Below the pieces are notes generated by a model. It was not told where the DNA came from. It was given only the letters and a program-made list of their open reading frames with translations, and did no database searches. Shown here piece by piece: positions 1,585 through 58,788 of a stretch of DNA of 64,000 bases. Source of the stretch: an uncultured Candidatus Saccharibacteria bacterium (GTDB lineage: Bacteria; Patescibacteriota; Minisyncoccia; Phycocordibacterales; SBAW01); the NCBI GenBank assembly GCA_964615415.1, contig CAZTNI010000001.1, positions 112,746-176,745 on the forward strand. Direction: 5' to 3'. The first letter of the stretch is position 1, and every line of letters starts with the position of its first letter. The translations under genes were made by a program, and so were the position numbers.

Positions 1585-3679
1585 AGTCCGGGTCGATCGC
1601 TTTGATAGAAAGGTTTATGCGACCTTTCTCGTCGATCTCTTTAATTATAACCCGCACCTTTTCCCCTACCGTGAGAGCGTCACCTACTTTTTCAATCCTA
1701 AATGGTGCGACTTCAGATACGTGAACCAATCCTTCTGCATCTTTGCCAGGACCAATGCGCACAAATGCACCGAAGTCCATCATGCGAGTTACTTCTCCGT
1801 CGTATGTCTCCCCTGCTTTGTACTCTTTCACAAGAGCTTCGATCATGGCTTTTGCCATCTGTGCTGCGCCGTTTTTACCGGTGATAAAGATAGAACCGTC
1901 GTCGTCGATCGTGATGTCGTCAACTTCAGACACATCCTTAATGCCGTTAATAGTTTTTCCACCGCCGCCAATAACGAGACCAATTTGGTCCGGCTTTACC
2001 TTCATGGTCACAATTTCTGGCGCACGAGGTGAGATAGTTTGGCGTGGTTGTGCGATCTCTTTTTCAATAACGTCCAAAATTTGTAACCGTGCTGTGCGGG
2101 CGCCTGCAAGTGCTTCGGTCAAAATCGCAACTGGAATGCCATCGAGTTTAATATCAAGTTGAATCGCGGTAATACCTTCGCGGGTACCGGCAACTTTAAA
2201 GTCCATGCCGCCAAATTCGTCTTCAGGACCTTGTATGTCGGTAAGCACTTTGTATCCTCCCCCGTGTGTCATGAGGCCCATCGCAATGCCGGCAACGGGA
2301 CGCTTAATCGGCACGCCGCCGTCCATGAGTGCAAGTGTTGATGCACAGACTGAACCCATCGAGGTTGAGCCGTTTGATGCGAAACACTCCGACACCAAGC
2401 GAATGGTGTATGGAAACTTGTCTTTGTCTGGAATAACTGCGACGAGTGCTTTTTCTGCAAGTGCACCGTGGCCAATTGCGCGACGGTTTTGTCCACCAAC
2501 GCGGCCGGTCTCGCCTGCAGAAAATGGTGGGAAGTTGTAGTGGTGCATGAAGCGCTTTTCTTCATCATGTGCTTCCATAGTGTCGACAATCTGTGAGTCG
2601 CCAGGGCCGCCTAACGTAAGAGCGGTAAACACGTGTGTACCGCCGCGGTAAAAGATGCCTGAGCCGTGGAGGATGTCAGAAATCCCTCCTGCTTTTGCAT
2701 AGAGCGGACGTAGCTGGTCAAACGCGCGGTTGTCAGCACGTTTGTTTTCTTCGACTGCGCCACGATGAATTTCTTCATCCACCTTGTCTTCAAGAAAACG
2801 CTTTACTAAGCCCGGATTAATTTCCTTGAGTGTTTCGTCTGCTTCGACGCGAGTTTTCCACTCTTTTTGCACAGCGTGGATAGCATCCTTACCTGGAGTG
2901 CCACAAAAGACCGCGTCTTTTACTTTTTGTGCGAACTCCGCTTCGAAGAGTGCGGTAAGTGCAGCAGGAACCTCTGGTTTTTCTGCAGACAATTTCGGCT
3001 TCCCGATCGTGCGAACAATATCGTTCTGCCAGGCAATAATTTTGTTGTGTTCCTCGACAGCGCGTGCAAGACCGCTCGCAACTTCGTCTTCATTGGCTTC
3101 GTTTGCAGCAACTTCGACCATGTTGATCGTGTTGTCTTTACCGCAGGCAAGAATGTCGAGTGTTGCGGTCTCGCGCTGTTTGTATGTTGGGTTGATGACG
3201 CTCTCTCCGCCTACGTTACCGATACGAACGCCGGCAACTGGTCCATGCCATGGAATGCTCGACGTCGCGAGTGCGAGTGATGCTGCATTCACTGCAACAG
3301 AGTCAGGATCTTCTTCGTCGAGTGCAAGTACAGTAATAATGACCTGCACTTCGTTGCGGATATGTTGTGGGAATAACGGGCGGATCGTACGGTCGACAAC
3401 GCGGCCCGAAAGTGTTGCTTGTTCGCTCGGGCGACCTTCGCGCTTAATAAAGCGGCTGCCTAAAATTTTTCCTGCAGCGTAAAAGCGTTCTTCGTAATCG
3501 ACAGTGAGTGGAAAGTAGTCAATATCGTCACGCGTTTTCTCGCTCATGACTGCGGTCGCAAGCACGGCGGTGTTGCCGTAGCGCAAAATAACCGAGCCGT
3601 TTGCATTCTCTGCAAGGTCGGTAAATTCTGCTATTAATTTTTTGCCGCCAACTTCTGTCTCAAACTTTTGTACGTTCAT
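1511..3679 (-). CDS. pnp: Polyribonucleotide nucleotidyltransferase (PNPase)
   Basis: 722 aa with two RNase PH domains plus KH and S1 domains. Typical motifs and the rpsO-pnp gene order are present. Confidence 0.95.
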   Translation of the reverse strand: MNVQKFETEVGGKKLIAEFTDLAENANGSVILRYGNTAVLATAVMSEKTRDDIDYFPLTVDYEERFYAAGKILGSRFIKREGRPSEQATLSGRVVDRTIRPLFPQHIRNEVQVIITVLALDEEDPDSVAVNAASLALATSSIPWHGPVAGVRIGNVGGESVINPTYKQRETATLDILACGKDNTINMVEVAANEANEDEVASGLARAVEEHNKIIAWQNDIVRTIGKPKLSAEKPEVPAALTALFEAEFAQKVKDAVFCGTPGKDAIHAVQKEWKTRVEADETLKEINPGLVKRFLEDKVDEEIHRGAVEENKRADNRAFDQLRPLYAKAGGISDILHGSGIFYRGGTHVFTALTLGGPGDSQIVDTMEAHDEEKRFMHHYNFPPFSAGETGRVGGQNRRAIGHGALAEKALVAVIPDKDKFPYTIRLVSECFASNGSTSMGSVCASTLALMDGGVPIKRPVAGIAMGLMTHGGGYKVLTDIQGPEDEFGGMDFKVAGTREGITAIQLDIKLDGIPVAILTEALAGARTARLQILDVIEKEIAQPRQTISPRAPEIVTMKVKPDQIGLVIGGGGKTINGIKDVSEVDDITIDDDGSIFITGKNGAAQMAKAMIEALVKEYKAGETYDGEVTRMMDFGAFVRIGPGKDAEGLVHVSEVAPFRIEKVGDALTVGEKVRVIIKEIDEKGRINLSIKAIDPDFAARKGLKPSNASATPRTQRPPRE

Positions 3680-7114: not shown

Positions 7115-8026
7115 ATGGCTCAAAACCAGCTCCTTAACCTAAAGACCGAGTTTTTGGAGTATCTCGAGATCGAAAAAGGCCGCAGTATTAAGACGGTTGA
7201 GAATTATGACCGCTATATTACGCGGTTTATAGCTTTTGCGAAGATTTCTGCTCCAAAACATATAGAAGAGCGCACGGTACGCGAGTTCCGCCTCCACTTA
7301 AACCGTCAACCAGGCACCTCGAGCACGATGAAGCACAAGACGCAGAACTATTACATGATCTCGATCCGCGCGTTTTTAAAGTTTTTGCGCAAACGCGGCA
7401 TAGAATCCCTTAATCCTGAACGTATTGAGCTTGCAAAGGTGGGCGCACGCGACTTGGACCTTATTTCTTCGCAAGAACTCGATCGCCTGATGCAAGGACC
7501 AAAAGGCACTACGCTACGCGCCTTGCGCGACAAGGCAATAATGGAGCTGCTTTTCTCAACAGGTCTGCGCGTGTCTGAGCTTTGTTCGCTTAACCGCGAC
7601 TTAGACCTCTCGCGCGATGAATTTTCTATACGTGGTAAGGGTGAAAAGGTGCGGGTAGTGTTTTTGTCGACAGAGGCAAAGGCTGCAATTAAAGCCTACT
7701 TAGACAAACGCGGTGATGTTGATGAAGCGCTTTTTATACAAATGGGCAAAGCGTCTAAAAATGCGCATGAACTACGTCTTACTCCCCGCTCGGTGGAGCG
7801 TCTTATTAAACAGTATGCAATTAAAGCGGGCATTACGCGCAAAGTAACGCCGCACGTTATCCGCCACTCGTTTGCAACGGATCTTTTGGAAAACGGTGCC
7901 GACTTACGCTCCGTGCAAGCCTTGCTTGGCCACGCAAACATAGCGACAACACAGGTCTACACCCACATTACCGACAAACACCTGCGCGAAATCCATAAAA
8001 AATTCCACGGCCAGAGAAGGAAGTAA
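7115..8026 (+). CDS. xerC: Tyrosine recombinase XerC/XerD family
   Basis: 303 aa with the C-terminal catalytic motifs R...HxxR...Y (RHSFATDLLENGADLRSVQALLGHANIATTQVYTH). Confidence 0.9.
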   Translation: MAQNQLLNLKTEFLEYLEIEKGRSIKTVENYDRYITRFIAFAKISAPKHIEERTVREFRLHLNRQPGTSSTMKHKTQNYYMISIRAFLKFLRKRGIESLNPERIELAKVGARDLDLISSQELDRLMQGPKGTTLRALRDKAIMELLFSTGLRVSELCSLNRDLDLSRDEFSIRGKGEKVRVVFLSTEAKAAIKAYLDKRGDVDEALFIQMGKASKNAHELRLTPRSVERLIKQYAIKAGITRKVTPHVIRHSFATDLLENGADLRSVQALLGHANIATTQVYTHITDKHLREIHKKFHGQRRK

Positions 8027-48628: not shown

Positions 48629-48994
48629 ATGGCAACCGAAGAAAAGAAAGTAGCAAAGCCTCGCGCTAAAAAGGCGACCGCAGAGCCAGAGCAGCGCTTG
48701 CGCATCAAGGTGCGTGCATACGAGCACAAGGTGCTTGATGCATCAGTAAAGCAAATTATGGAGACTGCTATTCGCTACGATGCGAAGATCGCAGGTCCTA
48801 TCCCGCTTCCAACTGAGATCAAGAAATACACCGTTAACCGCTCGACCTTCGTGTATAAAAATGCACGCGAGCAGTTTGAGATGCGAGTCCACAAGCGCAT
48901 CATCGACATCCTTAACCCAACGGCAAAGGTGATCGAGGCTCTCACGAACCTCTCGCTTCCTTCCGGAGTAACAATCGATGTAAAGATGGCCTAA
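48629..48994 (+). CDS. rpsJ: 30S ribosomal protein S10 (with basic N-terminal extension)
   Basis: Conserved S10 core (RLRIKVRAYEHKVLD...). Confidence 0.9.
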   Translation: MATEEKKVAKPRAKKATAEPEQRLRIKVRAYEHKVLDASVKQIMETAIRYDAKIAGPIPLPTEIKKYTVNRSTFVYKNAREQFEMRVHKRIIDILNPTAKVIEALTNLSLPSGVTIDVKMA

Positions 48995-49004
48995 GGGCCT
49001 CGGA

Positions 49005-49037
49005 AAAAGCCCCTCCTTGCGAGGGGCTTTTTCTTTG
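49005..49037 (+). terminator. Intrinsic terminator after rpsJ
   Basis: aaagcccctc-cttgc-gaggggctttttctttgg. Confidence 0.6.
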
Positions 49038-49071
49038 GTAATGTAGGCGGCGGAAACAACAGGAGAGACTG

Positions 49072-49275
49072 ATGGCTAAGGACTCGAAGGTGATTGAGGA
49101 GCTGCAAGAAGCGCGGAGGCGTATGCTGAAGCGAGCAGCAGGAATTGGTGAGCCTGCAATTGCAATACCTGCCCACATGCTCGGCATTATTGGGCTCGAG
49201 GAAGGGCGCCCTCAGGTGCTCATTCAGGTAGACAAACTAATCTCTTTGGTTAAAGAGGTGATAGCAACAAAATAA
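49072..49275 (+). CDS. Small hypothetical protein
   Basis: 67 aa, RBS aggagag, own terminator. Confidence 0.4.
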   Translation: MAKDSKVIEELQEARRRMLKRAAGIGEPAIAIPAHMLGIIGLEEGRPQVLIQVDKLISLVKEVIATK

Positions 49276-49281
49276 TGTCAG

Positions 49282-49310
49282 GCCTCTCGCAAGAGGGGCT
49301 TTTTCTTTGG
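49282..49310 (+). terminator. Intrinsic terminator (3' half identical to 49021-49037)
   Basis: cctct-cgca-agaggggctttttctttgg. Confidence 0.55.
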
Positions 49311-49591
49311 ATAACTTTGTTTGACTAATTCTGTGCATTTCATATACTTAAAAAAAGGTGCTCATTGTTTTGTTCCTGTTCACGAATAGGTACATGATTT
49401 CGGTCCGATGACTTAAGAATCGGATTTTTTATTTGGCACACAGTCAGGGTATTGATGCAGGCCGAGTAAAGAAATTGACGAAAAAATCCCCAGCGCTGGG
49501 GATTTTTTCGTATCGCAGGAGTTATTGACAAATATGTGTATGTACGGTTATGTAGTGACGGACAATTCAGTCCATAGGAGGACTAGCATAC

Positions 49592-50227
49592 ATGCATAAT
49601 GCACAAGCAGCTGCGGAAATGCCGGAAAGCGATCGGCAGAGCTCTGAGGCTCATCCTCGGCAGAAGACGCTGCACGTCGTGCCCCTGATCGAACAGATCA
49701 TGGCCGGTGTCGCTGCGATCCAGGTTGGCGACTATGAACTGCCAGCCGCGGAACTGCAAGAGAGTGACGAGATTGTCGGTCAGGCCGACGAGTATCTTAT
49801 GCGACTCTTCACGTATCGTTCGCGGAAGCTCGGCGAACGTCAGAAGCTTGCTACGGAGGGGCAAACGATCGTTGATGAGCTTGATGGAGCCATCTTTGGT
49901 AGCCGAGAGGAGACCAGAGCGTCTTCAGTTTCGGCCCTTCTCAAGGGGTTGTTCGGCAAGAATTCTTCGGAAATGGAAGCCAAGGCAATCCGGCTTGAAG
50001 AGATCGAATCGGCTCTTACGACCCTTAGGTCCGAAACCGATATTCTCGAGGGTCTATTTTGGGCAGAAGTCCGCCAGCGGCATCCGTCGATCAAGGATCA
50101 TTCTGCGATCGGGATCCGTAGCGGTTGGGAGATCGTCAAGATAACAAAGGTTGATTCGACCGATCTTCTCGAAAGTATCTTCGAGAAGGTCTTCGGTAGG
50201 GCTCGGCGGGCGCATTCGTCGCCGTAG
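49592..50227 (+). CDS. Hypothetical acidic protein
   Basis: 211 aa, about 58% GC. Located between rpsJ and rplC with its own promoter-like sequence and terminators. Confidence 0.45.
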   Translation: MHNAQAAAEMPESDRQSSEAHPRQKTLHVVPLIEQIMAGVAAIQVGDYELPAAELQESDEIVGQADEYLMRLFTYRSRKLGERQKLATEGQTIVDELDGAIFGSREETRASSVSALLKGLFGKNSSEMEAKAIRLEEIESALTTLRSETDILEGLFWAEVRQRHPSIKDHSAIGIRSGWEIVKITKVDSTDLLESIFEKVFGRARRAHSSP

Positions 50228-50262
50228 TTCGTTCGAGTTTGGTTCACAAACCTAGTGTTTTT

Positions 50263-50290
50263 AGGCCCGACGTACAGTCGGGCCTTTTAT
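50263..50290 (+). terminator. Intrinsic terminator
   Basis: aggcccgacgtacagtcgggcctttta. Confidence 0.55.
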
Positions 50291-50319
50291 TTGCATATTT
50301 AAAAGACCTGATGTATATT
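50291..50319 (+). promoter_or_regulatory. Putative promoter of the rplC operon (TTGCAT-17-TATATT)
   Basis: TTGCAT 50291-50296 and TATATT 50314-50319. A hairpin (gtccccca...tggggac) lies in the 5' leader. Confidence 0.4.
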
Positions 50320-50396
50320 GCTGTGTACGTTAGAAATAACGGCGTTCCACGTCCCCCAAGAGCCCTAACCAAGGGTGGGGACCAATAGACACCACT

Positions 50397-51034: not shown

Positions 51035-51703
51035 ATGGACGCAACACTTTATAACATCAAGGGAGAGAAAGCAGGCAAGGTAGCAGTACCTGAAGCGCTC
51101 TTCGGCTTGCAGTGGAATGCAGACTTGGTGCACCAGGTGGTTACCTCTATGCAGGCAAATGCCCGTGGTCCTATTGCACACACGAAAGATCGTGGCGAAG
51201 TACGCGGCGGCGGTCGCAAGCCATGGCAGCAGAAGGGTACTGGTCGCGCACGCCACGGTTCGTCTCGCTCTCCAATTTGGGTAGGCGGCGGTGTTGCACA
51301 TGGTCCTCGCAATGAAAAGTCTTTTGCAAAGAAGATCAATCGCCAGATGAAGCAGAAGGCGCTCTTTGTTGCACTTTCTCGCAAGATGAAAGACGGCGAA
51401 GTTATCTTTGTTGACACTATCGAGATGGCAGCTCCAAAAACAAAGGAGGCGAAAGCAGTATTGGGTGCACTCTCACGCGAGTTCCCAGCACTCGGTACTA
51501 AGAAAACTCGCACTGCGCTTATTGCGCTTCCACAGGCGCACAAGCCAACGATGAAGAGCTTCGCAAACTTCGGCAATATTACGATCGAGGATGTTCGCAA
51601 CCTTAACCCGATGTCTGTTCTTGCAAGCAAATACCTCGTTATTGCTAATCCGACTGCCGCATTTGAGACACTCTCAAAAAAGAAGGTCGCACAAACTAAC
51701 TAA
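51035..51703 (+). CDS. rplD: 50S ribosomal protein L4
   Basis: Conserved L4. ATG at 51035 (the ORF-track TTG start is at 51023). Confidence 0.93.
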   Translation: MDATLYNIKGEKAGKVAVPEALFGLQWNADLVHQVVTSMQANARGPIAHTKDRGEVRGGGRKPWQQKGTGRARHGSSRSPIWVGGGVAHGPRNEKSFAKKINRQMKQKALFVALSRKMKDGEVIFVDTIEMAAPKTKEAKAVLGALSREFPALGTKKTRTALIALPQAHKPTMKSFANFGNITIEDVRNLNPMSVLASKYLVIANPTAAFETLSKKKVAQTN

Positions 51704-51705
51704 GT

Positions 51706-51990
51706 ATGAAGACGAACTCACACATACTCCTTAGTCCGCGCGTTACTGAAAAGGGCGCATACCTTGCACAAGACAATGTGTATGTCTTTATGGTTGCCGG
51801 TGATGCAAACAAGAAGGAAATTGCAGAAGCAGTTCGTGCGACGTTTAAGGTAACGCCACGCAAGGTGACTATCGTCCCAGTGCCTCGCAAGAAGGTACAG
51901 ACTCGCGGCACTAACCGCTGGGGCAAGACTGCGACTGGCAAGAAGGCCTATGTCTACCTTAAAAAGGGTGAGACTATCGAGCTCGTATAA
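51706..51990 (+). CDS. rplW: 50S ribosomal protein L23
   Basis: Conserved L23. Confidence 0.93.
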   Translation: MKTNSHILLSPRVTEKGAYLAQDNVYVFMVAGDANKKEIAEAVRATFKVTPRKVTIVPVPRKKVQTRGTNRWGKTATGKKAYVYLKKGETIELV

Positions 51991-52005
51991 AGATAGAGAA
52001 ATTTT

Positions 52006-52857
52006 ATGAAACATTATCGCCCATACACAAAATCACGTCGCCACATGACCACACTGCCATTCCGGCAGTTGCTCACAACGAATGAGCCGCACAAAGCGCT
52101 CATTGGTGGTGGTAAGCGCCATGTTGGCCGCAACTCTGCGGGCCGCATTACCGTGCGCCACAAGGGCGGCGGACACAAGCGCCTTATGCGCGACGTAGAC
52201 TTCTCGTACACAAAGCAGGTTCCTGCTGTGGTAGAGACTATCGAATACGATCCAAACCGCTCGGGCTTCATCGGTGTGCTTCTTTACAAAGATGGTGAAC
52301 GCCGCTACGCACTTCTTCCGCAGTCTGTAAAAGTTGGCAGCACTATTGATGCTGGTGAGAAGGTAGAAGCACGTCCAGGTAACCGCATGGCACTTAAAAA
52401 CATGCCGATCGGCGCCTTTGTATACAACGTAGAAGTAAAGCCAGGTCAGGGTGGTAAACTCGGCCGTGCAGCAGGTACGCATATTGAAGTTGTTGCCCGC
52501 GACCAGGGGTATGTAGACCTTAAGATGCCGTCATCGGAAGTCCGCAAGGTGCTTGAAACTTGCTGGGCAACGATGGGCGAAGTGTCTAACCCAGAAAGCA
52601 AACTCGTAAACTTTGGTAAGGCAGGTCGCTCACGCTGGAAGGGTATCCGCCCAACAGTCCGCGGTACTGCTATGAACCCAGTAGACCACCCACACGGCGG
52701 CGGTGAAGGTCGCCAGGGTCGCGGTTTGCGCCGTGCAAAGAGTATGTGGGGTAAGCCAACCGGCAAGGGTCAGAAATCTCGCACTCCAAAGAAATACTCG
52801 AACTATCTCATTGTGTCTCGCCGCAAGGTAGGCAAGCGCAACTCTACTCAGGGCTAA
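52006..52857 (+). CDS. rplB: 50S ribosomal protein L2
   Basis: Conserved L2 (GGGHKR...). 283 aa. Confidence 0.95.
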   Translation: MKHYRPYTKSRRHMTTLPFRQLLTTNEPHKALIGGGKRHVGRNSAGRITVRHKGGGHKRLMRDVDFSYTKQVPAVVETIEYDPNRSGFIGVLLYKDGERRYALLPQSVKVGSTIDAGEKVEARPGNRMALKNMPIGAFVYNVEVKPGQGGKLGRAAGTHIEVVARDQGYVDLKMPSSEVRKVLETCWATMGEVSNPESKLVNFGKAGRSRWKGIRPTVRGTAMNPVDHPHGGGEGRQGRGLRRAKSMWGKPTGKGQKSRTPKKYSNYLIVSRRKVGKRNSTQG

Positions 52858-52902
52858 TAAAATTAGACAAAAGAAATCCCCGCCGTATGGCGGGGATTTT
52901 AG

Positions 52903-53379
52903 TTATGCAACGTAGCGCTGGGAAGAGCTTCCCATACGCGGATGCCATTCCAGTTCGCTCAACACCTGTGCCCATGCATGGTCGAGCAGTTGCCCATCGA
53001 TCTGCTTGTCGACGTATACATGACTAGTCGGGTCTGTGTAATACGTTTCGAGGAACCCGTGCTCTTGTGCGTGGTGGTCGCGCTTGAACTCGGTCACTTG
53101 CGTAAGGATAGAAGCCCAGGTAACTCGACCACTGATACGGGAAAGTGGACCAGTGTCGCGGTAGGCAAGCGCAAGTGGGTTTTCATCATCTCGGCAGATG
53201 CGCACATGAGAGGTAACCTTGCCGTCGTGTATGGAAATCATATTGAGTCGCCAGTGAGGTGGCGCATGCTTGTCTAGCCACACTGCGCCTCTGCGGGCCC
53301 GCTCGAGCGCTCGGTCTACGAGTTTTAGTGCGGTAATCGCTTCCTGTACATGCGGAGGATAGTCTTCAAGTTTGAACAC
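52903..53379 (-). CDS. Hypothetical protein (opposite strand inside the ribosomal cluster)
   Basis: 158-aa ORF, no family recognised. Confidence 0.4.
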   Translation of the reverse strand: MFKLEDYPPHVQEAITALKLVDRALERARRGAVWLDKHAPPHWRLNMISIHDGKVTSHVRICRDDENPLALAYRDTGPLSRISGRVTWASILTQVTEFKRDHHAQEHGFLETYYTDPTSHVYVDKQIDGQLLDHAWAQVLSELEWHPRMGSSSQRYVA

Positions 53380-53682
53380 GATCTGTTCTCCTGTGGCCGG
53401 TTCTTCCGGTAGGGACTATATACCGTATAGGTAAAAAAGAAAACGCCTCGGAGAATTCCGGGGCGTTTTTGTAAATCTGTTACCTAGTAATCAGACTCAG
53501 ATGAAGCATTTCTCTCGCGACCTCTTCCGGGTCGTCGTCAATTGCATACGGGTAAGCCCGGTACGGTCGTTCCCTGGACTCCTGGCTAGGTTCAGGAGGA
53601 GGTTTGGCAGAAGGTTCATCTGTGGCCATAAAGGTTCTCCGTGTCTGCTTTTTAATCCAAACTTTGTTGAGTTGGAATGCAC

Positions 53683-53988
53683 TTAATGCATCTGCTCGGG
53701 GCTGATCTGCGGCGGGGTATTTTCTCCTTGCTGAAGCTGCCCAGCATCCTTCATGGCGCTGCTCCAGTGCGGTCGGGGTAGGTGGGAAACGACAGACGCG
53801 GCCATCTGCTTGATGCTGCCCGCAGCGCGTAGAATCGGGGAAGGCTTCTTTGCCTTCTTGCCGTAATAAGCTACCTCGCACACTTCTGCACAGAAGAACA
53901 GTCCTGTGCTGCTGCGGCGAGACGTAAGGTGGCTGCAGCCCGGCGCCTTGCACGGCCCGAGCATTTTTTCGTTTTTATAGGCAGGCAC
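53683..53988 (-). CDS. Small Cys-rich zinc-finger-like protein (C-x4-C ... F-C-x3-C)
   Basis: GTG start with AAGGAG 6 nt upstream. Contains CKAPGCSHLTSRRSSTGLFFCAEVC, which is FCS/TRASH-like. The overlapping ORF 53480-53953 is in a different frame and is less supported. Confidence 0.4.
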   Translation of the reverse strand: MPAYKNEKMLGPCKAPGCSHLTSRRSSTGLFFCAEVCEVAYYGKKAKKPSPILRAAGSIKQMAASVVSHLPRPHWSSAMKDAGQLQQGENTPPQISPEQMH

Positions 53989-54167
53989 GAAATACTCCTT
54001 TGGTGGGATGTTTAGTTGAAACGCAAGAACAGACTAAAGCCCATCCTATGCCTCATATGTCAAATTGGCAAGAAATGGAAGGGGAAAAGAAAAGCCCCCG
54101 GATTTCGGGGGCTCTTATAACTTAGGACTTAGGCGGAATGTTGATTGCACGCCCTTCTTGTATTGAT

Positions 54168-54425
54168 TTAGCTGCTCGTCTGATCATGTCTCGACCCTCC
54201 CTGGATAGTTACGTGGTCGAGGTAGTCCATAATGTTCGAAGGGTCGGCGACCTTACGCTCCTCCGTCATCGAAATCGAGCGGGGAACAAGCTCGTAGCCC
54301 GGATTATCCCGCAGAAACTTCGCGATCTCCTTGAACGCATGCTGATCGTTTTCCATGCGGTTCAATTGCTTGAGGCGAGGTCTGCCGTTCTTCCGCTCCG
54401 TGTACCTAAATAGATACGTACGCAT
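54168..54425 (-). CDS. Hypothetical protein
   Basis: 85-aa ORF, opposite strand within the ribosomal cluster. Confidence 0.35.
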   Translation of the reverse strand: MRTYLFRYTERKNGRPRLKQLNRMENDQHAFKEIAKFLRDNPGYELVPRSISMTEERKVADPSNIMDYLDHVTIQGGSRHDQTSS

Positions 54426-54572
54426 CGCCGGCTCCTTTCTAGGGTTACTTCCGAGGCTTAAAGTAGCATATATTTGACTCTTTTACCCTTATCCTGTAGT
54501 ATCTCACTACTTCCGTGCCACAAGGCCTAGACGCTCTCTGTCTACGGCGGGCATGGGTTTTTATTTAAAAAT

Positions 54573-54935
54573 ATGAGTAGATCGCTCAAAAAAGGCCCAT
54601 ACGTAGACGAGAAGCTCCTCAAGAAGATTGAGGGGAAGAAGCCCCAGACAACTGAGGTAATTAAGACGTGGGCACGCCGCTCACAGATCGCTCCAGAAAT
54701 GGTCGGCTTTAAGTTTGGTGTACACAATGGCAAGCAGCATGTAGAGGTCTTGGTAAGCGAGGACATGGTCGGGCACCGCCTGGGCGAGTTCTCTCCTACG
54801 AAGAAGTTTACCCGCCACGGCGGTAAAATGCAGAAGGAAATGGAGGCTAAGGCTAAGGAGGCCGAGATGGCTGCAGCAGCAGCTGCTAAGGCTGCGGCAG
54901 ATGCTTCTGCTAATAAGAACCCAGCTAAGAAATAA
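54573..54935 (+). CDS. rpsS: 30S ribosomal protein S19 with Ala/Lys-rich C-terminal extension
   Basis: Conserved S19 core. Confidence 0.93.
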
Positions 54936-58080: not shown

Positions 58081-58084
58081 AAAG

Positions 58085-58116
58085 AAAGCCGCCTGAGTAG
58101 AGGCGGTTTTTCTTTT
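58085..58116 (+). terminator. Intrinsic terminator after rplE
   Basis: aagccgcct-gagtag-aggcggtttttcttttg. Confidence 0.55.
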
Positions 58117-58190
58117 GTTCAACACAACCTGCCAGGAACTGATGTATATTTATTTCAGTATCTGATCTTAAGATCCACCAGGAGGTACAA

Positions 58191-58391
58191 ATGGGCAATC
58201 GGATCATTCTTGGTTTTGGAGGGAATTTTAAGGAAGCTCGGATTCCTTCAAATATCCCGCTTTCTTCTGTGTCTCCTCATGTGCATCGGCTTCTAGGCAA
58301 TAAGTCGAAGCTGGGGCGTAAAGAACGCCGTCGGCAGAGAGAAGAAGAGGAAAGGCGGCGCGCTCGAGAATTCGATTCTTCCACTATGTAA
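58191..58391 (+). CDS. Small hypothetical protein with Arg/Glu-rich C-terminus
   Basis: 66 aa, RBS aggagg. Flanked by terminators, between rplE and the S14 gene. Confidence 0.35.
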   Translation: MGNRIILGFGGNFKEARIPSNIPLSSVSPHVHRLLGNKSKLGRKERRRQREEEERRRAREFDSSTM

Positions 58392-58420
58392 TGCCTCCGA
58401 AATAAGTAATAAAAGGCCGC

Positions 58421-58452
58421 CTCATTGAGGCGGCCTTTAAATTTGCGCTTTC
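58421..58452 (+). terminator. Intrinsic terminator
   Basis: aaaggccgcctc-attg-aggcggcctttaaattt. Confidence 0.55.
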
Positions 58453-58602
58453 AGATGGCCTATGTTAGTATCTTTGCACGCCCGTTTGGGCTCCTTTTTT
58501 CTGATAGGTGCCGCTTAGTGGAAACGCGAGGCAAACCGCAGAATCGTAACTCTCTAGGTAAGGGGAGTAAACCGGCCTAGTCCGGCGTATCGATTACAAA
58601 AT

Positions 58603-58788
58603 ATGGCTAAAAAGTCCACAGTTGCACGCTCAAACCGCACCCCGAAGTTTAAATCTCGGGTGGTTCGTCGTTGCTTCCGTTGCGGCCGTAAGCGTGCGTT
58701 TATGCGTGACTTTGGTCTCTGTCGCGCATGCTTCCGCGAAGCAGCAAATGAAGGCCTTATTCCAGGCGTTCGCAAATCATCATGGTAA
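58603..58788 (+). CDS. rpsN: 30S ribosomal protein S14 (zinc-binding type Z)
   Basis: 61 aa with CxxC...CxxC. Confidence 0.93.

What the first reader, a model, noticed from the sequence alone, without database searches (positions are those of the whole stretch)
52858..54572. Three small opposite-strand genes inserted between rplB and rpsS
L2 and S19 are adjacent in nearly all bacteria. Here a 1.7-kb segment carries three ORFs on the minus strand. One of them (53683-53988) has a strong RBS and a C-x4-C...F-C-x3-C zinc-finger-like motif. Transcription would be antisense to the ribosomal operon. This is a very unusual place for an insertion, and it implies an internal promoter for rpsS onward.
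Basis: seen in the sequence. Interest (0 to 1): 0.55.

Follow-up and report, generated by a model that had tools for sequence, protein, structure and literature searches.

The report
Conserved backward gene splitting ribosomal operon
In this uncultivated Kaiserbacteria-like bacterium, the normally unbroken run of ribosomal-protein genes is cut between L2 and S19 by a terminator, a conserved promoter and a backward-facing gene of unknown function with a predicted new fold; related genomes have the same layout, so it is an inherited feature and not an accident.

Summary
rplB (52006-52857) and rpsS (54573-54935) lie 1,715 nt apart. The gap carries four minus-strand ORFs with Shine-Dalgarno sites, not three: A (158 aa), B2 (49 aa), B (101 aa, Cys motif) and C (85 aa).

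An independent assembly spans both junctions at 100% identity, so this is not a misassembly. It is not a one-off insertion either.

- **ORF A** belongs to an unnamed family (56 cluster representatives, no Pfam match). AlphaFold confidence is high (pLDDT 92.7), and Foldseek finds no analogue in PDB or BFVD. At 12 of the 13 related loci with usable context, the A homologue lies in this same L2|S19 gap, or next to L2 or S19 on a cut contig, pointing against the operon.
- **rpsS promoter and leader.** Kaiserbacteria/Zambryskiibacteria relatives keep a TTGACx-N17-TAGTAT promoter and a hairpin-plus-U leader in front of rpsS, whatever fills the gap. Their gaps run from 168 to 4,834 nt, against 5-198 nt in other bacteria.
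- **Insulation.** Strong hairpin terminators close off each unit, so antisense read-through into rplB is unlikely.
- **ORFs B, B2 and C.** These are orphans with weak codon signal. B's zinc-finger resemblance to eL24/TRASH is not significant (E≈1).

Verdict: a real, clade-conserved split of the S10 operon around a resident gene of unknown function.

The parts
52006..52857 (+). rplB (ribosomal protein L2), last gene of the upstream unit rplC-rplD-rplW-rplB
   Evidence: Pfam Ribosomal_L2_N and Ribosomal_L2_C, E 1e-26 and 1e-48. 68-86% identical to L2 of Kaiserbacteria-like relatives.
52873..52900 (.). Bidirectional intrinsic terminator shared by rplB (+) and ORF A (-). A 12-bp GC-rich hairpin with a U-run on both strands.
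   Evidence: Folds at -22.0 kcal/mol (z -6.2) on + and -20.4 kcal/mol (z -5.4) on -. Top terminator hit. The same architecture lies between L2 and A in L089.
52903..53379 (-). ORF A, 158 aa. Member of an unnamed conserved protein family. It is the resident gene of the L2|S19 gap in Kaiserbacteria-like genomes.
   Evidence: Profile search: 56 representatives at E<1e-3, 23 at E<1e-10. Motifs R-x3-G-x2-WLD-x2-AP-x-DWR, PLALAF, DGRV, GF, LDxAW. AlphaFold pLDDT 92.7, pTM 0.84. No Foldseek hit in PDB or BFVD. No Pfam, NCBIfam, PHROG or PADLOC hit. Same position and orientation in L002, L085, L089, L090-92/L099, L093-L098 and a JGI contig.
53440..53469 (-). Intrinsic terminator of the B-B2 unit (hairpin, then U-run to about 53432)
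   Evidence: -16.9 kcal/mol, z -4.3. The sub-threshold Rfam hits here are all terminator-containing models.
53480..53629 (-). ORF B2, 49 aa, acidic (pI 4.6). An orphan, probably co-transcribed with B.
   Evidence: ATG with GGAGAA 5 nt upstream. Called as a gene on Logan contig L001. Best of six frames but weak codon score, -0.10. No homologue in related gaps.
53683..53988 (-). ORF B, 101 aa, basic (pI 9.5). N-terminal C-x4-C...FC-x3-C motif. An orphan.
   Evidence: GTG with AAGGAG 7 nt upstream. Only a self-match among 5.8 billion clusters. No Pfam hit even at E 10. The only PDB sequence matches are archaeal eL24 at E≈1, residues 14-46. Codon score -0.09, best of six frames.
54043..54071 (-). 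Promoter-like site for ORF B (TTGCCA-17-TAGGAT)
   Evidence: Consensus scan. This is a pattern match only and is not conserved elsewhere.
54090..54116 (-). Intrinsic terminator of ORF C (hairpin, then U-run to about 54080)
   Evidence: -19.7 kcal/mol, z -3.9.
54168..54425 (-). ORF C, 85 aa, basic. Transcribed divergently from rpsS.
   Evidence: ATG with AAGGAG 7 nt upstream. One weak homologue at the same relative position in L002 (32% identity, pairwise E 4e-7). Otherwise an orphan. Codon score -0.006.
54474..54502 (+). Conserved sigma-70-type promoter of the rpsS-led operon (TTGACT-N17-TAGTAT)
   Evidence: Position-conserved hexamers with a 17-nt spacer in the 8-genome alignment. A pattern search finds it in 13 distinct clade genomes and no outgroup. 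Variant hexamers are seen by eye in L097, L095, L013, L014, L008 and L098.
54503..54572 (+). rpsS leader: a two-helix stem (54513-54556), then a U-rich tract, with no Shine-Dalgarno site before the ATG
   Evidence: -21.9 kcal/mol, z -3.7. The same fold occurs in L098, L089, L002 and L097: 18 pairs, 5 with compensatory changes, 94% of cells paired, covariation 0.317 against 0.166 shuffled (0/500), slid controls 0.19 or less. No Rfam match.
54573..54935 (+). rpsS (S19), first gene of the downstream unit rpsS-rplV-rpsC-rplP-rpmC-rpsQ-rplN-rplX-rplE
   Evidence: Pfam Ribosomal_S19, E 2e-33. The downstream genes are tightly packed.

Best explanation
This is a genuine, vertically inherited break of the S10 ribosomal-protein operon at the L2|S19 junction. 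It is characteristic of a Kaiserbacteria/Zambryskiibacteria-related clade of Patescibacteria.

How it works:
- Transcription of rplC-rplD-rplW-rplB stops at a bidirectional intrinsic terminator 16 nt after rplB.
- rpsS and the eight genes behind it are re-started from their own conserved TTGACT-N17-TAGTAT promoter. The transcript begins with a short structured, SD-less, U-rich leader.
- This operon boundary tolerates insertions. Its long-term resident in the Kaiserbacteria subclade is gene A, a fast-evolving soluble protein of about 160 aa with a confidently predicted but unmatched alpha/beta fold. A always points against the ribosomal genes.
- This genome has added two further monocistronic or bicistronic cassettes between A and rpsS: B with B2, and C. 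Each has its own SD sites and hairpin terminator.

Shown here: the anatomy, the conservation of promoter and leader, the synteny, and the family and fold of A.

Inferred: that the promoters and terminators actually function; that B, B2 and C are translated; and the role of A. A has no invariant polar or catalytic residues across the 41-sequence alignment; only W43, G108 and W136 are invariant, and R27 is the only nearly invariant charged residue. I therefore take A to be a non-enzymatic binding or structural protein. Its position is retained mainly because it sits between two blocks that selection keeps together. Some functional tie to translation is possible but not demonstrated.
For: - **Identity of the flanks:**
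- **Gap anatomy, SD sites and terminators:**
- **Independent assemblies across both junctions:**
- **Clade-wide expansion of this one junction:** the gap is 168-4,834 nt in all 12 close relatives where it could be measured, against 5-198 nt in about 60 other bacteria, including other CPR groups.
- **Varied gap contents in relatives:** IS200-like transposase, purC, PhoH/PIN, DAG kinase, DUF5674 and orphans. This shows a permissive boundary.
- **rpsS promoter conserved whatever fills the gap**, including L005, whose gap is only 168 nt with no ORF.
- **Leader structure with covariation:**
- **Family A is real:**. It has a high-confidence fold and no known relatives.
- **A sits in or beside the L2|S19 gap, antisense, at 12 of 13 related loci with usable context:**
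- **Vertical descent:** A identity tracks ribosomal-protein identity, and the two closest A sequences (L002 and L097) also share near-identical leaders.
- **No sign of a mobile element:** gap GC is 0.52 against about 0.50 for the surroundings. There are no convincing flanking repeats, no integrase, and no PHROG or PADLOC hits.
Against: - No expression data exist. Promoters and terminators are pattern, energy and conservation inferences only.
- B, B2 and C have no homologues apart from C's single weak match. Their codon-usage scores (-0.10 to -0.006) lie well below native genes (0.25 ± 0.11), so they may be young, foreign or untranslated.
- A's own promoter is not clearly identifiable in the window.
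- One close A homologue (P0006, L087) lies elsewhere in its genome, so the position is not obligatory.
- Passive retention and functional coupling cannot be told apart with these data.
Confidence: 0.72

Rival explanations
1. Gene A is functionally coupled to ribosomal-protein expression or to the ribosome. For example, it could act in trans on the rpsS promoter or structured leader, or be a lineage-specific ribosome-associated factor. On this reading the conserved position reflects co-regulation and not passive inheritance.
For: - A keeps its place beside L2 or S19 at 12 of 13 loci while its sequence falls to 33-47% identity to the window's A.
- In L089, L090/L091, L095, L097 and L098, A and rpsS are divergent neighbours about 125-210 nt apart, so their promoter regions are back to back. 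In L089, L097 and L098 the rpsS -35 lies in a perfect palindrome, CTTGCGCAAG.
- From general knowledge, not tested here: conserved divergent gene pairs often signal a regulator and its target (Korbel et al. 2004).
- One distant A-like protein is fused to an FtsK-gamma winged-helix DNA-binding domain and also diverges from rpsS.
- The rpsS leader is a conserved structure that could be a regulatory target.
Against: - A does not co-vary with leader type or promoter variant. L090 (with A) and L007 (without A) share the same short leader. L005 lacks A in the gap yet keeps the promoter.
- In the window and in L002, other genes separate A from rpsS.
- No DNA- or RNA-binding fold was detected. Close orthologues have near-neutral pI.
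- The fusion protein comes from a 1.1-kb contig and could be chimeric.
Confidence: 0.17
2. Some or all of B, B2 and C are not protein-coding. On this reading they are chance ORFs inside short non-coding transcripts or spacer DNA that has built up at the operon boundary.
For: - No homologues for B or B2 among 5.8 billion clusters or in any related gap.
- C has one marginal match.
- Codon scores are near or below zero.
- B and C appear in the protein collection only from Logan gene calls, not from the NCBI record of the long contig.
Against: - Every ORF has a well-spaced Shine-Dalgarno motif.
- Each annotated frame scores best of the six.
- Each unit ends in a dedicated strong terminator just after the stop codon.
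- C and its L002 counterpart share an identical-style N-terminus (MRTYLFRY and MRSYTFRY) at the same relative position.
Confidence: 0.3
3. The segment is a recently acquired mobile or horizontally transferred island, such as a prophage remnant, a toxin-antitoxin pair or a defence cassette, that landed in the operon.
For: - B, B2 and C are orphans with atypical codon usage.
- The basic B and acidic B2 pair loosely resembles a two-component addiction module.
- A related gap (L018) holds an IS200-like transposase.
- L002 has four copies of a repeated terminator/promoter module flanking its small genes, which suggests cassette shuffling.
Against: - No integrase, transposase or recombinase is present.
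- No convincing flanking direct or inverted repeats. The best is 15/19 complementary, within chance.
- GC content matches the surrounding genome.
- No significant or consistent PHROG, PADLOC or Pfam hits.
- No matches in phage, plasmid or IMG/VR collections.
- The core gene A is inherited vertically at this site.
Confidence: 0.08
4. ORF B is an eL24/TRASH/FCS-type zinc-ribbon protein that binds rRNA or the ribosome.
For: - It has four Cys in two pairs, the second in an F-C-x3-C-x3-Y context followed by a Lys-rich stretch.
- The only PDB sequence matches are three archaeal eL24 entries, aligned co-linearly at residues 14-46.
Against: - E≈1, and the three hits are close relatives of each other, so they count as one observation.
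- The first pair is C-x4-C, not C-x2-C.
- No Pfam match at E 10.
- No homologue in any other genome, including sister genomes with the same gap.
Confidence: 0.07
5. The arrangement is an assembly or binning artefact: a chimeric join inside the ribosomal cluster.
For: None beyond the prior that MAG contigs can be chimeric.
Against: - A 3,416-nt contig assembled independently from SRR14271366, and seen in 4 samples, is 100% identical across both junctions. A second run covers the left junction.
- The same architecture occurs in at least 12 other genomes and metagenomes.
Confidence: 0.01

Closest known systems
Canonical bacterial S10 operon (rpsJ-rplC-rplD-rplW-rplB-rpsS-rplV-rpsC-rplP-rpmC-rpsQ) with its L4-controlled leader attenuator in E. 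coli
   Same: Same genes in the same order. A promoter is followed by a leader with a terminator-like hairpin just before the first gene of a ribosomal-protein unit, which resembles the E. coli S10 leader in layout.
   Different: - Here the operon is cut internally at L2|S19, and also at S10|L3 and L5|S14, by terminators, promoters and foreign genes.
- The structured leader precedes rpsS, not rpsJ.
- It has no Rfam counterpart.
- No regulator is known.
Separation of the translation/transcription super-cluster operons by multigene insertions in Gammaproteobacteria and Bacilli (PMC6735719, PMC8046335; abstracts seen)
   Same: [quoted passage not shown]
   Different: According to those abstracts, the insertions separate whole operons from one another. 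Here the break lies inside the S10 operon, at a gene pair that was adjacent in all 60 or so outgroup genomes sampled. It also has a conserved antisense resident gene.
Conserved divergently transcribed gene pairs (regulator and target), from general knowledge (Korbel et al. 2004, Nat Biotechnol)
   Same: In several relatives, A and rpsS are divergent neighbours with a shared intergenic region of about 125-210 nt, conserved across substantial sequence divergence.
   Different: No DNA-binding domain is detectable in A. In the window itself A is not adjacent to rpsS. A's presence does not correlate with the promoter or leader variant.
eL24 / TRASH / FCS-type zinc ribbons (for ORF B only)
   Same: Two Cys pairs, with an FC-x3-C second knuckle followed by aromatic and Lys-rich residues. 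Co-linear weak alignment to archaeal eL24.
   Different: Not significant (E≈1). The first knuckle is C-x4-C. No Pfam match. No homologues.
OGG47225.1 / UniRef100_A0A1F6CD99, 'hypothetical protein A2671_02480' of a Candidatus Kaiserbacteria bacterium (P0008)
   Same: Same protein family as ORF A (44% identity). Same position between L2 and S19 and same antisense orientation.
   Different: That genome also carries DUF5674 and an 89-aa gene, co-directional with the operon, between L2 and A. It lacks B, B2 and C.

Membership tests
Canonical single-unit S10 operon | Gene content and order rplC-rplD-rplW-rplB-rpsS-rplV-rpsC-rplP-rpmC-rpsQ | tested here: met
   ORF list. Pfam for L2 and S19. Window proteins match the corresponding genes, with Pfam labels, in related loci.
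Canonical single-unit S10 operon | rplB and rpsS directly adjacent (spacer of tens of nt) | tested here: not met
   The spacer is 1,715 nt, against 5-198 nt in about 60 non-clade genomes.
Canonical single-unit S10 operon | No internal terminator or promoter between rplB and rpsS (co-transcription) | tested here: not met
   In silico only. Strong bidirectional terminator at 52873-52900. Conserved promoter at 54474-54502. Transcript mapping is not possible with these tools.
Protein family A (OGG47225.1-like Kaiserbacteria hypothetical proteins; unnamed, no Pfam) | Significant full-length profile match to family members | tested here: met
   hmmsearch finds 56 representatives, the best at E 2e-52. 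Pairwise E values of 1e-33 to 1e-45.
Protein family A (OGG47225.1-like Kaiserbacteria hypothetical proteins; unnamed, no Pfam) | Signature motifs: G-x2-WLD-x2-AP, W43, PLALA[FY], GF, LDxAW | tested here: met
   All are present in the window protein. W43, G108 and W136 are invariant in 41 sequences.
Protein family A (OGG47225.1-like Kaiserbacteria hypothetical proteins; unnamed, no Pfam) | Location in the L2|S19 gap, opposite in strand to the ribosomal genes | tested here: met
   This holds for the window and for 12 of 13 other loci with usable context. The exception is L087.
TRASH / FCS / eL24-type zinc ribbon (ORF B) | Significant sequence or profile match to the family | tested here: not met
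   No Pfam hit up to E 10. eL24 chains match only at E≈1.
TRASH / FCS / eL24-type zinc ribbon (ORF B) | Two Cys knuckles with family spacing (C-x2-C ... C-x3-C) | tested here: inconclusive
   The second knuckle, FC-x3-C, fits. The first is C-x4-C, and the linker is 14 residues.
TRASH / FCS / eL24-type zinc ribbon (ORF B) | Zinc binding and a zinc-ribbon fold | not testable with these tools
Mobile element / genomic island | Integrase, transposase or recombinase gene | tested here: not met
   No such Pfam, PHROG or NCBIfam hit for any gap ORF.
Mobile element / genomic island | Flanking direct or inverted repeats (att sites or terminal repeats) | tested here: not met
   Only chance-level repeats. 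The best pair at the two ends is 15/19 complementary.
Mobile element / genomic island | Compositional deviation from the host genome | tested here: inconclusive
   GC is 0.52 against about 0.50 for the surroundings, so there is no deviation. However, B, B2 and C have low codon-usage scores.
Toxin-antitoxin or anti-phage defence system | Match to known defence or TA protein models | tested here: not met
   PADLOC gives only two marginal hits for A (E 0.015 and 0.026) and none for B, B2 or C. Pfam gives nothing.
Described ribosomal-protein leader RNAs (Rfam) | Covariance-model match to a curated leader family | tested here: not met
   No Rfam match over 54503-54572, even at E 10.

The most novel reading that the evidence does not exclude
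Family A is a previously unrecognised, Kaiserbacteria-specific protein with a new fold that is functionally tied to ribosomal-protein synthesis or to the ribosome. It might, for example, act in trans on the conserved rpsS promoter and structured leader. On this reading the L2|S19 break would be a lineage-specific regulatory node that replaces part of the classical S10-operon control, not a neutral landing pad.
Probability: 0.15. Interest if true: 0.7.

Novelty: new variant of a known kind. Interest (0 to 1): 0.45.

Why it matters
The L2-S19 adjacency belongs to one of the most conserved gene arrangements in prokaryotes, and ribosomal-protein contigs are routinely used to anchor CPR phylogenies. 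A whole Patescibacteria clade has broken this operon at one fixed point. It has installed a conserved internal promoter and a structured leader, and it keeps a fast-evolving gene of predicted new fold there. This gives three things:
- a concrete handle on how ribosomal-protein expression is organised in these reduced, uncultivated bacteria;
- a candidate new cis-regulatory RNA;
- a well-defined uncharacterised protein family, with a high-confidence model, for functional study.

It also shows a site where orphan genes accumulate next to essential genes. There is a practical caution too: unusually long L2-S19 spacers in CPR bins are not evidence of misassembly.

Tried and rejected
- **Family and domain scans of A, B, B2, C and the 157-aa alternative ORF.** Pfam, PHROGs, NCBIfam and PADLOC gave nothing significant. 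C's BRK hit (E 0.0015, below the cutoff) was dismissed as spurious.
- **Word-index homology searches.** A has one distant homologue. B and C match only themselves.
- **First AlphaFold run** with a 2-sequence alignment failed (pLDDT 35.6). It succeeded only after the profile search supplied 41 sequences.
- **PDB profile search with the A family:** nothing.
- **Scans of IMG/VR, phage and plasmid collections** with A, with distant A-like proteins and with their alignments found nothing. The only matches were to the FtsK-gamma part of the fusion protein.
- **First metagenome scan** with the 2-sequence alignment found nothing. The 41-sequence alignment was too divergent to seed a scan.
- **Rfam at a permissive threshold** returned only terminator look-alikes.
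- **15-nt exact repeat** GGTAGGCAAGCGCAA in rplB and within A. I considered it as an insertion footprint and rejected it: it encodes the conserved LALAY motif of A and does not extend.
- **19-nt imperfect inverted repeat** at the two ends of the gap was rejected as chance.
- **Literature searches** (DUF5674; Patescibacteria with S10 operon; rplB/rpsS insertion in CPR) found no description of this arrangement.
Full report
**1. The observation.** Pfam assigns 52006-52857(+) to ribosomal protein L2 and 54573-54935(+) to S19. Between them lie 1,715 nt. All credible ORFs in the gap are on the minus strand:
- A, 52903-53379 (158 aa)
- B, 53683-53988 (101 aa)
- C, 54168-54425 (85 aa)

Each has a Shine-Dalgarno motif 5-7 nt before its start codon (AGGAGA, AAGGAG, AAGGAG and GGAGAA respectively). 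B carries the described motif C13-x4-C18...F32-C33-x3-C37. A gene caller working on an independently assembled contig called exactly these four genes. The overlapping 157-aa ORF 53480-53953 is a frame shadow.

**2. Not an artefact.** A 3,416-nt Logan contig from SRR14271366, seen in four samples, is 100% identical to window 51220-54635. It therefore covers both the rplB|A junction and the C|rpsS junction. A contig from SRR14271367 covers 52422-53619.

**3. Anatomy of the gap.** Three strong hairpins followed by U-runs end the units:

| Position | Terminates | dG (kcal/mol) | z |
|---|---|---|---|
| 52873-52900 | rplB (+) and A (-), bidirectional | -22.0 and -20.4 | -6.2 and -5.4 |
| 53440-53469 | the B-B2 unit | -16.9 | -4.3 |
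| 54090-54116 | C | -19.7 | -3.9 |

The permissive Rfam scan returned only sub-threshold matches to terminator-containing models at these three places, and nothing else. A TTGACT-N17-TAGTAT promoter-like site lies at 54474-54502, 70 nt before rpsS. rpsS itself has no SD. It is preceded by a two-helix stem (54513-54556) and a U-rich tract. The minus-strand units are therefore insulated from rplB and diverge from rpsS. They do not overlap the ribosomal transcripts.

**4. Whose genome.** The L2 protein is most similar (54-86%) to L2 of Patescibacteria MAGs labelled Minisyncoccia, Kaiserbacteria, Zambryskiibacteria and Paceibacteria.

**5. The junction is broken across the clade.** I located L2 and S19 in 80 genomes recovered with the window's L2. 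The spacer is 168-4,834 nt in all 12 close relatives where both genes were on the contig, and 537 nt or more in eleven of them. In about 60 other bacteria it is 5-198 nt. That outgroup includes other CPR lineages: Uhrbacteria, Yanofskybacteria, Falkowbacteria, Buchananbacteria and Absconditabacterales.

The gap contents differ between relatives:
- an IS200-like transposase plus a 1,007-aa protein (L018)
- purC (L019)
- a PhoH/PIN ATPase (L020)
- a diacylglycerol kinase (L015)
- DUF5674 plus an 89-aa gene (L007)
- several orphans

The junction is thus a permissive boundary in this clade.

**6. A conserved rpsS promoter.** Aligning the sequence upstream of rpsS in eight genomes shows position-conserved hexamers with a fixed 17-nt spacer:

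| Locus | -35 | Spacer | -10 |
|---|---|---|---|
| window, L005, L090, L091, L007 | TTGACT | 17 | TAGTAT |
| L006 | TTGACA | 17 | TAGTAT |
| L002 | TTGCGC | 17 | TAGAGT |
| L089 | TTGCGC | 17 | TACAGT |

A pattern search finds this promoter in 13 distinct clade genomes and in none of the outgroups. The clade members that escaped the pattern carry obvious variants: TTGCGC-17-TATAGT, TTGACA-17-TACTAT, TTGACG-17-TATATT, TTGACA-16-TATGAT and TTGCGC-17-TACATT. L005 has the promoter although its gap is only 168 nt with no ORF. The operon break therefore does not depend on the inserted genes.

**7. A conserved leader.** In the window, L098, L089, L002 and L097, the 5' UTR folds into the same two-helix structure:
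- 18 pairs, five with compensatory double changes
- 94% of cells paired
- covariation score 0.317 against 0.166 in shuffles (0 of 500 as high)
- controls with the pairing partner slid by 1-3 columns score 0.19 or less

Other clade members have a simpler GC hairpin plus U-run between the -10 element and the ATG. With five sequences this is supportive, not conclusive. Functionally it could be an attenuator, analogous in layout to the E. coli S10 leader. It could also be a 5' stabiliser combined with a U-rich ribosome landing site. That step is inference.

**8. ORF A is a real, conserved family with an unmatched predicted fold.**
- The word-index search found one homologue, at 52% identity.
- A profile of the two sequences then found 56 cluster representatives, 23 of them at E<1e-10.
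- The family is 150-180 aa long. Conserved blocks are R-x3-G-x2-WLD-x2-AP-x-DWR, PLALAF, DGRV, GF and LDxAW. Across 41 sequences the only invariant residues are W43, G108 and W136. This pattern is typical of a structural or binding protein and not of an enzyme; that reading is inference.
- There are no significant or consistent Pfam, NCBIfam, PHROG or PADLOC hits and no PDB-sequence hits.
- With the 41-sequence alignment AlphaFold gives pLDDT 92.7 and pTM 0.84. With two sequences it gave 35.6.
- The one named member, OGG47225.1, is a 'hypothetical protein' of a Candidatus Kaiserbacteria bacterium.

**9. A's position is conserved.** Every family member whose contig gives context was checked.

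| Locus | Arrangement |
|---|---|
| L002 | A with a C homologue and other small genes between S19 and L2 |
| L089 | A alone between L2 and S19 |
| L095 | A alone between L2 and S19 |
| L090/L091/L092/L099 | A plus DUF5674 and an 89-aa gene |
| JGI contig | S19, a 74-aa gene, then A |
| L096, L097 | A between L2 and S19 |
| L085, L093, L098 | A convergent with L2 (in L098 also beside the rpsS leader) |
| L094 | a distant A-like domain fused to FtsK-gamma, divergent from rpsS |
| L087/L088 | A sits after purL (the only exception) |

That makes 12 of 13 loci, always opposite in strand to the ribosomal genes. A identity falls to 33-52% where L2 stays at 68-88%, so the arrangement is old and A evolves fast. 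L089 has the same bidirectional terminator between L2 and A. In L091/L099 a 26-aa pseudo-copy of the L2 C-terminus lies between A and the DUF5674/89-aa pair. This is a footprint showing that the pair was inserted later into an ancestral L2→←A junction.

**10. ORFs B, B2 and C.**
- B and C have no relatives among 5.8 billion clusters.
- C has one weak, co-located counterpart in L002: 32% identity, pairwise E 4e-7, N-termini MRTYLFRY and MRSYTFRY.
- B and B2 have no counterpart in any related gap.
- Codon-usage log-odds are -0.09 (B), -0.10 (B2) and -0.006 (C). Native genes score 0.25 ± 0.11 and A scores 0.077. In each case the annotated frame is the best of the six.
- Their SD sites and dedicated terminators argue that they are expressed units. 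Whether they are translated is open.
- B's only PDB sequence matches are archaeal eL24 at E≈1, co-linear over residues 14-46. This is a lead toward a TRASH/FCS-type zinc ribbon and not a finding. Pfam finds nothing even at E 10.

**11. Not a mobile element.** The segment has no integrase or transposase. Gap GC is 0.52 against about 0.50 nearby. Flanking repeats are at chance level only. There are no phage, plasmid or IMG/VR matches and no defence-system hits. L002's gap does contain four copies of a repeated terminator/promoter module around its small genes. This suggests that small cassettes are shuffled or duplicated locally at this boundary.

**12. Mechanism and confidence.**
- Best supported (about 0.72): a clade-specific operon boundary made of a terminator after rplB and a conserved promoter plus structured leader before rpsS. 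Its intervening space holds a vertically inherited resident gene (A) and, in this genome, additional young cassettes (B/B2 and C).
- Functional coupling of A to rpsS-operon expression or to the ribosome is possible (about 0.17). For it: the conserved divergent pairing, the palindromic -35 element in three genomes, and a winged-helix fusion. Against it: A's presence does not correlate with the promoter or leader variant, and no nucleic-acid-binding fold was detected.

**13. Comparison with what is known.** Insertions that separate the operons of the translation super-cluster are documented in Gammaproteobacteria and Bacilli (PMC6735719, PMC8046335; abstracts seen). I found no description of a break inside the S10 operon at L2|S19 with a conserved antisense resident gene, nor of this leader or protein family. 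I therefore rate it a new variant of a known kind. It is of moderate interest to specialists and would rise if A or the leader proves regulatory.

Noticed in passing
window 54503-54572 (also L098 10-72, L089 about 3064-3135, L002 about 7225-7290, L097 upstream of 4790): The rpsS 5' leader forms a conserved two-helix structure followed by a U-rich tract, with no Shine-Dalgarno site. Five of its pairs show compensatory changes across five genomes, and it has no Rfam match. Other clade members have a simpler GC hairpin plus U-run in the same place. It is a candidate attenuator or 5' stabiliser for the rpsS-led operon.
   Followed up: partly
window 48995-50396: A second break in the ribosomal cluster lies between rpsJ (48629-48994) and rplC (50397). 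It spans 1.4 kb and holds two plus-strand orphan ORFs (49072-49275, 67 aa; 49592-50227, 211 aa). Each is bounded by terminator-like hairpins at 49013, 49280, 49478-49511 and 50263, with promoter-like sites at 49321 and 50290. Several relatives also have an enlarged S10-L3 spacer, up to 3.5 kb.
   Followed up: partly
window 58081-58602: A third break lies between rplE and rpsN (S14, 58603-58788). It spans 522 nt and holds a 66-aa ORF (58191-58391). Its terminator-like sequence GAGGCGGTTTTTCTTTTG (58100-58117) resembles the ones after rpsJ and after the 67-aa ORF. Its -10-like stretch GAACTGATGTATATT (58136-58150) nearly repeats the one before rplC (50305-50319). In relatives the L5-S8 interval reaches 1.8-3.3 kb. 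In L002 it holds three antisense small ORFs.
   Followed up: partly
L099 2800-2877 (equivalent region in L091): A 26-aa pseudo-copy of the L2 C-terminus (65% identity) lies between gene A and the DUF5674/89-aa pair, while the intact rplB is 700 nt further on. It looks like a footprint of an insertion that duplicated the 3' end of rplB.
   Followed up: partly
L094 309-998 (protein P0045); related P0044: A distant A-like domain is fused to an FtsK-gamma winged-helix domain (Pfam PF09397), and the gene diverges from rpsS. P0044 shares the N-terminal 150 or so residues but has a different C-terminus. The contig is only 1.1 kb, so a chimera or frameshift cannot be excluded.
   Followed up: partly
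L002 8108-10401: Four copies of a repeated terminator hairpin (AAAAAGCCCCGGGCCATTCGGCCCGGGGC...TTTTT) occur here; two of them sit in 71-nt modules that are 99% identical. Three copies of a '-10 + UTR + SD' module (TATGGTATAGTCGC...AGGAG) flank the small genes in that genome's L2-S19 gap. This points to local duplication or shuffling of monocistronic cassettes.
   Followed up: partly
window 54573-54935 and 48629-48994: S19 carries an Ala/Lys-rich C-terminal extension of about 25 residues ([25 protein letters not shown]). S10 has a Lys-rich N-terminal extension of about 20 residues. Alignments to relatives stop before these tails, so the tails are variable.
   Followed up: no
window 52827-52841 and 53160-53174: There is an exact 15-nt repeat, GGTAGGCAAGCGCAA. 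One copy encodes KVGKR at the end of L2. The other, on the opposite strand, encodes the conserved LALAY motif of A. It does not extend and was judged coincidental.
   Followed up: yes
L089 about 3160-3170, L097 and L098 upstream of rpsS: The -35 element of the rpsS promoter sits in a perfect 10-bp palindrome, CTTGCGCAAG, in the three genomes where A and rpsS are direct divergent neighbours. It could serve both divergent promoters or be a protein-binding site.
   Followed up: no
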